A stretch of DNA of 64,000 nucleotides from Escherichia coli (GCF_045037415.1 NZ_CP173438.1); one strand, 5' to 3'; shown: positions 38,541 to 38,720, counted from the first letter of the stretch. Translations and numbers: made by a program. The notes: a model not told the origin generated them from the letters alone.

Positions 38541-38720
38541 AGTTGTTATCCGTGTGCGTGTCCATAGAGATGTTACATTTTGTTTCTATAACATCTTTGT
38601 ACAATTTAACAACACAGCAACCATGTAAATCGGAATTGAAACCAATATTTAACTTAACAATGTTAACTCGATCACTCCGTTAACCGAGTTTTCCTGCAAT
38701 CTCATTTAATTCTGTCGGGC

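What the first reader, a model, noticed from the sequence alone, without database searches (positions are those of the whole stretch)
38569..38595. Inverted repeat GATGTTA-N13-TAACATC upstream of the cstA start codon
A perfect 7-bp inverted repeat sits 29-57 bp upstream of the cstA ATG, in the promoter or leader. It could be an operator or an mRNA hairpin affecting translation; cstA expression is reported to be controlled by CRP and post-transcriptionally.
Basis: seen in the sequence. Interest (0 to 1): 0.25.

Follow-up and report, generated by a model that had tools for sequence, protein, structure and literature searches.

The report
Regulator binding site over cstA promoter
The inverted repeat is real, but transcription of the E. 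coli pyruvate-transporter gene cstA starts between its two arms, so it is not an mRNA hairpin; it lies in a conserved stretch of the core promoter where the regulator OmpR has already been mapped in vivo, which makes it an ordinary, largely known feature.

Summary
The window is E. coli chromosome and the repeat lies in the entH-cstA intergenic region, with cstA on the minus strand. The repeat is in fact a perfect 8-bp inverted repeat (38568-38575 / 38589-38596, 13-nt spacer). It is not statistically unusual: an 8-bp repeat appears in 9% of shuffles of the intergenic region, a 7-bp repeat in 31%.

Two genome-wide datasets place the main cstA start site at G38576, inside the spacer. The upstream arm (-20..-13) is promoter DNA. 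The downstream arm is +2..+9 of the mRNA, so the main transcript cannot form the hairpin.

Across 80 Enterobacteriaceae loci only the core TGTT...AACA is conserved, and no change is compensated. What is conserved is a 25-bp block, T.TAGA.ACAAAATGTAACA, which covers the -10, the start site and the first transcribed bases.

That block is the best match in the whole window to OmpR sites from ompF and ompC. It lies under a published OmpR ChIP-exo peak (window 38539-38598). cstA also rises in a Salmonella Typhi ompR mutant. Both arms score equally well as ArcA-type half-sites (ATGTTA), and ArcA is a known strong repressor of cstA.

Best reading: this is a response-regulator operator that blocks the CRP-dependent promoter. 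It is already largely known and of low interest.

The parts
38568..38575 (-). Downstream arm of the inverted repeat. It reads TAACATCT on the cstA sense strand and is +2..+9 of the main cstA mRNA.
   Evidence: Searches give the sequence; searches give the start site. TAACA is 94-100% conserved in 81 Enterobacteriaceae sequences.
38589..38596 (-). Upstream arm of the inverted repeat. It reads AGATGTTA on the sense strand and spans -20..-13, so it is promoter spacer DNA that the main promoter does not transcribe.
   Evidence: Only T38593, G38592 and T38590 are well conserved (96, 89 and 91%). G38595 is at 26%, A38594 at 22% and A38589 at 52%.
38576..38576 (-). Main cstA transcription start site (G), giving a 36-nt leader.
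   Evidence: Kim 2012: TSS 629081 in NC_000913.2, 43 reads, 5'UTR 36 nt. Ettwiller 2016 Cappable-seq: 629081 with score 36.0, against 2-3 for neighbouring minor starts. The coordinate mapping is verified by sequence.
38583..38588 (-). Likely -10 hexamer TAGAAA (-12..-7). TATAGA at 38585-38590 is the alternative if the start is A38579.
   Evidence: Inferred from the start-site position. TAGA is 88-100% conserved. No consensus sigma-70 promoter is called, which fits a promoter that depends on an activator.
38605..38613 (-). Conserved block GTTGTTAAA containing the likely -35 hexamer TTGTTA (38607-38612, 18-bp spacer). It is also the strongest ArcA-type direct-repeat element of the region.
   Evidence: 81-100% conservation. 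ArcA repeat-element score 12.0 bits for TTGTTAAATT at 38603-38612.
38572..38597 (+). OmpR-type half-site cluster on the strand antisense to cstA. It holds GTTACATTTT (38572-81), GTTTCTATAA (38582-91) and, in an overlapping register, TTTTGTTTCT/ATAACATCTT (38578-97). It spans -21..+5 of the promoter.
   Evidence: With a matrix built from six ompF/ompC sites, the top 20-mer of the whole window is 38578-38597 at 16.7 bits; half-sites score 10.8 and 9.2 bits. The only window matches to GTTACATTTTGTTACAT (3 mismatches or fewer) and to KWWGTTACAT fall here. The match is conserved in orthologues.
38539..38598 (.). Published OmpR ChIP-exo peak P5 'cstA' (629059-629118 in U00096.2), centred at +7.5 from the start site.
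   Evidence: Seo et al. 2017, PMC5438342, Supplementary Table 1. Coordinates were converted using ATG(.2)=629117 and checked against the ompF peak and the F1-F3 positions.
38661..38676 (-). CRP site AGTGATCGAGTTAACA, centred at -92.5 from G38576.
   Evidence: 90-100% conserved at the TGTGA/TCACA-equivalent positions. The literature places the CRP site at -200..-120 from the ATG, about 80 nt upstream of the start site.
38635..38655 (-). Published predicted ArcA box AAGTTAAATATTGGTTTCAA(T/C), at -79..-59 from the start site.
   Evidence: Park et al. 2013, PMC3798270, Tables S1/S4. Re-scored here at 14.6 bits, rank 3 in the window.
38559..38571 (-). Predicted GcvB R3 pairing region of the leader (+6..+18). 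It includes G-22 and touches the last 3 nt (AUC) of the downstream arm.
   Evidence: Duplex prediction. This agrees with Miyakoshi 2021, where a compensatory mutation at G-22 restored regulation.
38549..38552 (-). Shine-Dalgarno CGGA, the GGA-containing CsrA target reported in the literature.
   Evidence: 88-99% conserved. The CsrA literature is summarised.
36435..38540 (-). cstA coding sequence (pyruvate/H+ symporter, 701 aa).

Best explanation
The inverted repeat is a by-product of winged-helix response-regulator half-sites (core ATGTTA / TAACAT) sitting on both strands around the -10 element and the start site of the weak, CRP-dependent cstA promoter. It is not an RNA element.

Transcription starts at G38576, inside the spacer. 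The upstream arm is promoter DNA at -20..-13, and the downstream arm is the first nucleotides of the mRNA at +2..+9.

The functional unit is the conserved 25-bp block 38569-38593. On the antisense strand it reads as tandem OmpR half-sites, GTTACATTTT-GTTTCTATAA, with a second overlapping register ending in ATAACATCTT. OmpR-P occupies this stretch in vivo.

The inferred mechanism is that a bound regulator covering about -21 to +5 excludes RNA polymerase. That would shut off cstA whatever the state of CRP bound at -92.5, for example at high osmolarity or low pH. ArcA recognises nearly the same half-site and is a known strong anaerobic repressor of cstA, so it may use the same elements in addition to its upstream box.

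Shown: the sequence, the start site, the conservation, the motif match and the published in vivo OmpR peak. Inferred: which bases are contacted, and that binding represses by occlusion.
For: **Start site.**
- Two independent genome-wide datasets place it in the spacer at 629081 (.2), which is window 38576.
- The 39-nt leader used by Leistra 2018 puts the older start at 38579, also in the spacer.

**Conservation.** In 81 Enterobacteriaceae sequences, 38571-38588 is 84-100% conserved apart from A38584 (69%), while the flanks drop to 20-50%.

**Match to OmpR sites.**
- My recalled ompF F1-F3 and ompC C1-C3 sites were confirmed as exact matches in K-12.
- A matrix built from them gives its best hit of the whole 64-kb window at 38578-38597 (16.7 bits, within the 12-21 bit range of the training sites). 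Half-sites score 10.8 and 9.2 bits, the top 0.06% of all 10-mers.
- The published OmpR repeat GTTACATTTTGTTACAT and the motif KWWGTTACAT each match the window only here.
- In 57 of 80 orthologous ~6-kb loci the best-scoring 20-mer falls in this block. 41 of 80 have 3 or fewer mismatches to the 17-mer, against 0 of 1489 random zones.

**In vivo evidence.**
- The OmpR ChIP-exo peak P5 'cstA' covers window 38539-38598, centred at +7.5, with S/N 4.91.
- cstA transcripts increase in a Salmonella Typhi ompR mutant.

**ArcA.** Both arms are top-0.01% ArcA repeat elements. cstA is 21.5-fold derepressed in an arcA mutant.
Against: - The OmpR peak is modest (S/N 4.91), and cstA expression did not change in the E. 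coli ompR mutant in that study (0.3 M NaCl). As I understand the conditions, that was glucose medium, where a CRP-dependent promoter is off anyway.
- The cstA site itself was among the 25 peaks used to derive KWWGTTACAT, so that motif match is partly circular. The ompF/ompC matrix is independent of it.
- cstA is not mentioned in the main text of the Salmonella OmpR ChIP-seq paper. Its supplements were not checked.
- The half-site registers are ambiguous, with two registers 6 bp apart and both strands scoring. OmpR, ArcA and RstA half-sites cannot be told apart by sequence.
- Part of the conservation must come from the -10 element, the start site and the GcvB/CsrA-targeted leader rather than from a regulator.
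- No footprint or promoter mutagenesis exists for this site.
Confidence: 0.62

Rival explanations
1. The element is an mRNA leader hairpin. The two arms pair in the cstA 5' UTR and modulate translation or CsrA/GcvB access.
For: - If both arms are transcribed, the RNA folds into a 10-bp stem with a 9-nt loop, dG -9.5 kcal/mol, z = -3.4.
- A minor Cappable-seq start at 629063 (window A38594, score 2.9 against 36 for the main start) would include most of the upstream arm.
- No terminator is predicted between entH and cstA, so ent read-through transcripts could contain the whole repeat.
Against: - The main start at G38576 lies in the loop, and the real leader has an unstructured 5' end.
- There is no covariation. 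75.5% of cells pair, against 74.1% in column shuffles, and the covariation score equals that of slid controls.
- A38589 changes to C in 44% of sequences and T38591 to A/C/G in 32%, with no compensating change.
- The outer pairs of the 7-bp stem are Watson-Crick in only 20-51% of sequences.
- The stem ends about 16 nt before the Shine-Dalgarno sequence and does not sequester it. The loop has no GGA.
- No Rfam family matches.
Confidence: 0.04
2. The repeat is chance, on top of ordinary core-promoter conservation. The block is conserved only because it holds the -10 element, the discriminator, the start site and the 5' end of an mRNA targeted by GcvB and CsrA. No regulator uses the repeat or the block.
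For: - Repeats of this size are common by chance (9-31% of shuffles).
- The conserved TGTT and AACA fall next to promoter elements.
- The GcvB R3 duplex reaches +6..+18, and cstA is a verified GcvB and CsrA target.
- The E. coli ompR mutant showed no change in cstA expression.
Against: - Near-invariance of 18 consecutive bases from -12 to +6 across a bacterial family is far more than -10 and start-site function needs. The Shine-Dalgarno region and the GcvB/CsrA-targeted leader downstream are much less conserved.
- The conserved TG at -17/-16 is not at the extended -10 position.
- An OmpR ChIP-exo peak sits exactly here.
- This is the best OmpR-matrix hit in 128,000 positions.
Confidence: 0.17
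3. The core-promoter half-sites are an ArcA operator rather than an OmpR one. The two ATGTTA arms and the -35 block TTGTTAAAT are extra ArcA direct-repeat elements through which ArcA-P occludes RNA polymerase under anaerobiosis.
For: - cstA is 21.5-fold up in an arcA mutant, and an ArcA ChIP-seq peak lies in the region.
- With a matrix built from 65 published ArcA sites, the arms score 10.5 and 10.6 bits and the -35 block 12.0 bits, each in the top 0.01% of the window.
- Park et al. report that most ArcA-repressed promoters have sites overlapping the RNA polymerase footprint and that many have 3-5 repeat elements.
Against: - The arms are inverted, not direct. Spacings between same-strand elements are 18 bp, not the 11 or 22 bp typical of ArcA.
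- The best 11-bp-phased box is the published one upstream at 38635-38655 (14.6 bits, against 10.1 bits or less over the repeat).
- The ArcA ChIP peak centre (628999, window 38658) is about 80 bp upstream of the repeat and was seen in only one replicate.
- Direct in vivo mapping over the repeat exists for OmpR, not for ArcA.
Confidence: 0.12
4. The repeat is a palindromic operator for a dimeric repressor that recognises TGTTA-N13-TAACA, for example DeoR or an unidentified factor.
For: - The core TGTT...AACA is conserved on both sides at fixed spacing.
- The DeoR half-site is TGTTAGAA, and DeoR was enriched about 2-fold on cstA promoter DNA in an affinity capture.
Against: - The canonical DeoR operator is a 16-bp palindrome, TGTTA-N6-TAACA, verified at deo O1 and O2. 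No match with 3 or fewer mismatches exists in the window.
- A deoR deletion did not change cstA-lux expression.
- Half of the sequences have TGTTC or TGATC in the upstream arm while the downstream arm is invariant, so the two half-sites are not equally constrained.
Confidence: 0.05

Closest known systems
OmpR binding sites of ompF (F1-F3) and ompC (C1-C3), and the OmpR ChIP-exo regulon of Seo et al. 2017
   Same: Both have tandem 10-bp half-sites with a G-x-x-A-C-A core. cstA GTAACATCTC and ATAACATCTT resemble ompC GAAACATCT(A/T); GAAACAAAAT resembles ompF GAAACCAAAT; GTTACATTTT resembles ompC TTTACATTTT. In vivo OmpR occupancy has been reported at this exact place.
   Different: At ompF and ompC the sites lie upstream of the -35 (-100 to -40) and activate transcription. 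Here the site overlaps the -10 and +1, which implies repression. The register and orientation are ambiguous, and no footprint or regulatory effect has been shown in E. coli.
ArcA box (direct repeats of TGTTA, 11 bp centre to centre; Park et al. 2013)
   Same: Both arms and the -35 block are high-scoring single ArcA repeat elements. cstA is a reported direct ArcA-repressed operon.
   Different: The arms are inverted and 18 bp apart. The published ArcA box of cstA lies elsewhere, at 38635-38655.
DeoR operator (16-bp palindrome TGTTAGAA.TTCTAACA overlapping the -10 of deoP1/P2)
   Same: It has the same half-site core, TGTTA/TAACA, the same inverted orientation and the same position over the -10 region.
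   Different: The spacer is 13 nt instead of 6. There is no match to the operator pattern and no effect of deleting deoR.
CsrA-regulated leaders with GGA in hairpin loops (glgC type)
   Same: cstA is a classical CsrA target whose GGA sites include the Shine-Dalgarno sequence.
   Different: The repeat lies upstream of all leader GGA motifs, its loop has no GGA, and half of it is not transcribed. Published work notes that cstA footprints lie outside stem-loops.

Membership tests
RNA leader hairpin (translational control element) | Both arms are present in the mature transcript. | tested here: not met
   The main start at G38576 lies between the arms. Only a minor start at A38594 (about 8% of the main signal) or ent read-through would include both.
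RNA leader hairpin (translational control element) | Base pairs are maintained by compensatory changes across relatives. | tested here: not met
   paired cells 75.5% against 74.1% shuffled, and the covariation score equals the slid controls; losses at 38589 and 38591 are uncompensated.
RNA leader hairpin (translational control element) | The stem sequesters the Shine-Dalgarno sequence or start codon, or presents a GGA loop to CsrA. | tested here: not met
   The stem ends at 38568 and the Shine-Dalgarno sequence is at 38549-38552. The loop GAAACAAAA has no GGA.
OmpR binding site | Tandem 10-bp half-sites with a conserved G-x-x-A-C core that match known sites. | tested here: met
   Top matrix hit in the window at 16.7 bits; half-sites 10.8, 9.2 and 4.6 bits. 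14 of 17 bases match the published repeat, and this is the only match in the window.
OmpR binding site | OmpR occupies the site in vivo. | tested here: met
   Taken from the literature, not re-measured here: ChIP-exo peak P5 at 629059-629118 (.2), which is window 38539-38598.
OmpR binding site | Expression of the target gene depends on OmpR. | tested here: inconclusive
   No change in the E. coli ompR mutant at 0.3 M NaCl. cstA is increased in a Salmonella Typhi ompR mutant.
OmpR binding site | Direct protection by OmpR-P in vitro (footprint). | not testable with these tools
   I found no published footprint for cstA. This needs DNase I or hydroxyl-radical footprinting.
ArcA box | Two TGTTA-type direct repeats, 11 bp centre to centre. 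| tested here: not met
   Over the repeat, the arms are inverted and same-strand elements are 18 bp apart. The best phased 21-mer over the repeat scores 10.1 bits, against 14.6 bits for the published box at 38635-38655.
DeoR operator | A 16-bp palindrome TGTTAGAA(W)(W)CTAACA. | tested here: not met
   The pattern is verified at deo O1 and O2. There are 0 matches with 3 or fewer mismatches in the window.
CRP site | TGTGA-N6-TCACA. | tested here: not met
   The repeat is TGTTA-N13-TAACA. The real, conserved CRP site is AGTGATCGAGTTAACA at 38661-38676.
Sigma-70 core promoter | A mapped start site with -10 and -35 hexamers at proper distances. | tested here: met
   Start site. TAGAAA lies at -12..-7 and TTGTTA at -36..-31 with an 18-bp spacer (sequence). 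It is weak, so no strict consensus hit is called, which fits CRP dependence.

The most novel reading that the evidence does not exclude
The conserved pseudo-dyad TGTT-N15-AACA around the cstA start site could be a composite operator read in opposite orientations by two different OmpR-family regulators: OmpR, responding to osmolarity and pH, and ArcA, responding to redox state. Alternatively it could be read by OmpR bound head-to-head. Either way, one 25-bp element would integrate several stress signals to veto CRP activation of pyruvate uptake. The family-wide near-invariance would then reflect overlapping constraints from two regulators, RNA polymerase and the mRNA 5' end.
Probability: 0.12. 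Interest if true: 0.4.

Novelty: already known. Interest (0 to 1): 0.17.

Why it matters
The result settles how to read this repeat. It should not be annotated as a leader hairpin or a CsrA/CRP element, because the cstA transcript begins inside it.

It also ties together scattered published data into one promoter map for a transporter that connects carbon starvation to pyruvate uptake:
- the start site at -36 from the ATG;
- CRP at a proper class-I position (-92.5), which removes the 'unusual distance' puzzle;
- an ArcA box at -79..-59;
- an OmpR ChIP-exo peak over the -10 and +1;
- GcvB and CsrA acting on the 36-nt leader.

The only modestly new point is that the OmpR/ArcA-type block is almost invariant across Enterobacteriaceae. 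That suggests the core-promoter operator is functionally important even though the one E. coli experiment saw no expression change.

Tried and rejected
- **Hairpin.** I folded it and tested it for covariation on 75 distinct orthologous sequences. It is rejected because the start site lies in the loop and no change is compensated. Some lineages show apparent outer-stem extensions: GGGG...CCCC in L048, L050, L063 and L068, and CAGAGG...CCTCTG in some Kluyvera. These looked like covariation, but they need bulges, are absent in sister species (L062, L066), and outer-pair complementarity equals the shift controls.\n- **CRP or CsrA site in the repeat.** Rejected on spacing and on the absence of GGA.\n- **DeoR.** This lead came from the affinity-capture list. 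The canonical operator is absent.\n- **Other motifs recalled from memory.** Cra, PdhR, Fis, IHF, TyrR, CusR/HprR, PhoP and CpxR all gave poor matches or the wrong spacing and were not pursued. The RstA box TACATNTNGTTACA matches 10 of 12 specified positions, but I found no in vivo evidence for it.\n- **Rfam.** No hit.\n- **Consensus promoter and terminator scan.** Nothing was called.\n- **Papers not held.** Dubey 2003 (CsrA-cstA) and Thomason 2015 could not be read.\n- **Klebsiella start site.** The Klebsiella cstA start was not found in the held part of the Kim 2012 supplements.\n- **Salmonella OmpR ChIP-seq paper.** cstA is not mentioned in its main text.

Full report
**Where we are.** The window is E. 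coli chromosome. A 501-bp query around the finding matches 5418 of 5426 complete E. coli genomes and is annotated entH / cstA. cstA (pyruvate/H+ symporter, 701 aa) is on the minus strand at 36435-38540. entH ends at 38721, so the finding lies in the 180-bp entH-cstA intergenic region. All 'sense' statements below refer to the minus strand.

**Checking the observation.**
- GATGTTA (38569-75) and TAACATC (38589-95) are there with a 13-nt spacer.
- The repeat is really a perfect 8 bp, 38568-75 / 38589-96.
- The sequence is identical in K-12. Within E. coli, the common polymorphisms of the promoter fall outside the repeat.
- It is not statistically remarkable. An 8-bp perfect inverted repeat with a 3-30 nt loop arises in 9% of dinucleotide shuffles of the intergenic region, and a 7-bp one in 31%. 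The window contains 220 such 7-bp repeats against about 131 expected.

**Where transcription starts.**
- Kim et al. 2012 list the cstA start at 629081 (NC_000913.2): 43 reads, gene start 629117, 5'UTR 36 nt, and an upstream sequence ending ...TAGAAACAAAATG.
- Ettwiller et al. 2016 Cappable-seq gives the same position with score 36.0. Minor starts score 2-3 at 629063, 629071 and 629094.
- With ATG(.2)=629117 corresponding to window 38540, the main start is G38576. The mapping is confirmed by the sequence of the published ArcA site, 629002-629022 = AAGTTAAATATTGGTTTCAAC = window 38655-38635.
- The cstA mRNA modelled by Leistra et al. 2018 begins AATGTAAC..., a 39-nt leader that puts an older start at A38579.
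- Either way the start is in the spacer of the repeat. The upstream arm is -20..-13, which is DNA only. The downstream arm is +2..+9.
- The likely -10 is TAGAAA (38588-83) and the likely -35 is TTGTTA (38612-07, 18-bp spacer).
- No consensus promoter is called. That fits a weak, CRP-dependent promoter.
- The conserved CRP site AGTGATCGAGTTAACA (38676-61) is then centred at -92.5. From general knowledge of CRP promoters this is a normal class-I phase. It removes the 'unusual ~80 nt' remark quoted.

**The hairpin reading.**
- If both arms were transcribed, the RNA would form a 10-bp stem with a 9-nt loop (dG -9.5, z -3.4). The real leader starting at G38576 has an unpaired 5' end.
- I collected 80 orthologous loci from Enterobacteriaceae and aligned the promoter.
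- The stem is not supported by evolution. 75.5% of cells pair, against 74.1% after column shuffling, and the covariation score equals that of partners slid by +2 or +3.
- A38589 is C in 44% of sequences and T38591 differs in 32%, while their partners are invariant.
- Complementarity beyond the stem equals the shift controls.
- The stem does not reach the Shine-Dalgarno sequence, its loop has no GGA, and Rfam has nothing here.
- Only the minor start at A38594 or read-through from entH could contain both arms. No terminator is predicted between entH and cstA.

**What is conserved instead.** The alignment shows three near-invariant islands:
- the CRP site;
- GTTGTTAAA (38613-05);
- a 25-bp block, TG.T.TAGA.ACAAAATGTAACAtc (38593-69), that spans -17 to +8.

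Within that block, 38571-38588 is 84-100% conserved apart from A38584 (69%). The Shine-Dalgarno sequence and the rest of the leader are much less conserved. The downstream arm belongs to this block. Of the upstream arm only TGT.T is conserved.

**What the block matches.**
- Read on the + strand it is GTTACATTTT GTTTCTATAA.
- Seo et al. 2017 give the OmpR motif as KWWGTTACAT and the repeat as GTTACATTTTGTTACAT. The window matches these only at 38569-78 (10 of 10) and at 38572-88 (14 of 17).
- I recalled the classical OmpR sites F1-F3 and C1-C3, confirmed each as an exact match in K-12 ompF and ompC upstream DNA, and built a matrix from them.
- The best 20-mer of the whole 64-kb window on both strands is 38578-38597 (16.7 bits, against 12-21 for the training sites). 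Half-sites GTTACATTTT and ATAACATCTT score 10.8 and 9.2 bits.
- Both arms carry AACATCT, the core of the ompC half-sites GAAACATCT(A/T).
- In 57 of 80 orthologous ~6-kb loci the best matrix hit falls in this block. 41 of 80 have 3 or fewer mismatches to the 17-mer, against 0 of 1489 random zones.

**In vivo evidence from the literature.**
- Seo et al. 2017, Supplementary Table 1, list OmpR ChIP-exo peak P5 'cstA' at 629059-629118 (.2), which is window 38598-38539. It is centred at +7.5 from the start site with S/N 4.91. There was no expression change under their condition of 0.3 M NaCl. As I understand it the medium contained glucose, in which a CRP-dependent promoter is silent.
- I checked their coordinate system on the ompF peak, which falls on F1-F3.
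- Perkins et al. 2009 report increased cstA transcription in a Salmonella Typhi ompR mutant.
- OmpR binding over the repeat is therefore already on record. The repressive effect is suggested but not proven.

**ArcA.**
- Park et al. 2013 list cstA among direct ArcA-repressed operons: 21.5-fold up in the arcA mutant, a ChIP-seq peak in one replicate at 628999, and a predicted box at window 38655-38635.
- With a matrix built from 65 of their sites (cstA excluded), both arms of the repeat are top-0.01% single ArcA repeat elements: ATGTTATAGA on the minus strand at 10.5 bits and ATGTTACATT on the plus strand at 10.6 bits. The -35 block scores 12.0 bits.
- They are not spaced 11 bp apart in direct orientation, however. 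The best phased box remains the published upstream one.
- Sequence alone cannot separate OmpR half-sites from ArcA half-sites. The direct in vivo mapping over the repeat is for OmpR.

**Other regulators.**
- cstA is a verified GcvB target. My duplex prediction puts the R3 pairing at +6..+18, which includes the G-22 position tested by compensatory mutation and touches the last 3 nt of the downstream arm.
- The CsrA sites are GGA motifs further downstream.
- DeoR was enriched about 2-fold on cstA promoter DNA, but deleting it had no effect. Its 16-bp operator was verified at deo and is absent from the window.
- Fis sites were proposed near the CRP site, not at the repeat.

**Conclusion.**
- The repeat is real but is not a unit of function.
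- It arises because ATGTTA/TAACAT-type half-sites for winged-helix response regulators lie on both strands around the -10 and +1 of the cstA promoter.
- The most likely mechanism is promoter occlusion by OmpR-P, and possibly ArcA-P, which would override CRP activation. My confidence in this is about 0.6.
- The hairpin reading is essentially excluded for the main transcript.
- The components are all in the literature: the start site, CRP, ArcA and the OmpR peak. The finding is therefore 'already known' and of low interest.
- The one mildly new observation is how strongly the block is conserved across the family.

Noticed in passing
window 38661-38676: With the start site at G38576, the conserved CRP site is centred at -92.5, a regular class-I phase. 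This explains the 'unusual, about 80 nt upstream' comment in the cstA literature.
   Followed up: partly
window 38635-38660: Park 2013 Table S6 places the cstA ArcA site at -44..-24. That implies a start at 629046 (.2), window 38611, which neither Kim 2012 nor Ettwiller 2016 reports. Relative to the mapped start the box is at -79..-59, so ArcA would act by blocking CRP activation or through further repeat elements. The discrepancy is unexplained.
   Followed up: partly
window 38646-38669: A dense cluster of strong ArcA-type repeat elements (TTGTTAAGTT 10.7 bits, AAGTTAAATA 10.4 bits, ATGTTAACTC 9.2 bits) abuts and overlaps the promoter-proximal half of the CRP site. In most other Enterobacteriaceae the corresponding stretch reads A(A/C)TGTGATGTAAAT.
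   Followed up: partly
L084 (K-12 ompF upstream, about -222 from the ompF start): The ompF upstream region contains CAGAAACAAAATTT, which shares an 11-nt identity (AGAAACAAAAT) with the conserved cstA block. Its significance is unknown.
   Followed up: no
L053, L057, L059 (Atlantibacter and a strain labelled Citrobacter freundii M-21), upstream of locus position 2501: These loci carry about 70 extra nucleotides of leader between the conserved promoter block (GTTCTAGAAACAAATTGTAATGT) and the Shine-Dalgarno sequence.
   Followed up: no
L085 (T7Express, B strain) and L087 (strain CRE10): cstA is annotated as a frameshifted pseudogene in these E. coli genomes.
   Followed up: no
window 38541-38720: No intrinsic terminator is predicted between entH and cstA, so transcripts of the iron-regulated ent operon may read into cstA and would contain the whole repeat.
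   Followed up: no
window 17718-17738 (+): The best ArcA-box-like 21-mer of the whole window, ATGTAATTAAAATGTTGAATA at 20.8 bits, lies in the intergenic region between dpiB and a divergent + strand ORF (17973-19118, presumably citC).
   Followed up: partly
window 38674-38689: An 11-nt overlapping palindrome (ACTCCGTTAAC / GTTAACCGAGT) overlaps the distal edge of the CRP site. The region is poorly conserved outside E. coli.
   Followed up: no
L048, L050, L063, L068 and Kluyvera loci L044, L046, L054, L056 (promoter block): Some lineages have extra complementary bases outside the TGTTA/TAACA core: GGGG...CCCC with a 4-nt bulge, and CAGAGG...CCTCTG with a 1-nt bulge. They look like stem extensions, but sister species (L062, L066) lack them and overall they do not exceed the shift controls.
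   Followed up: yes
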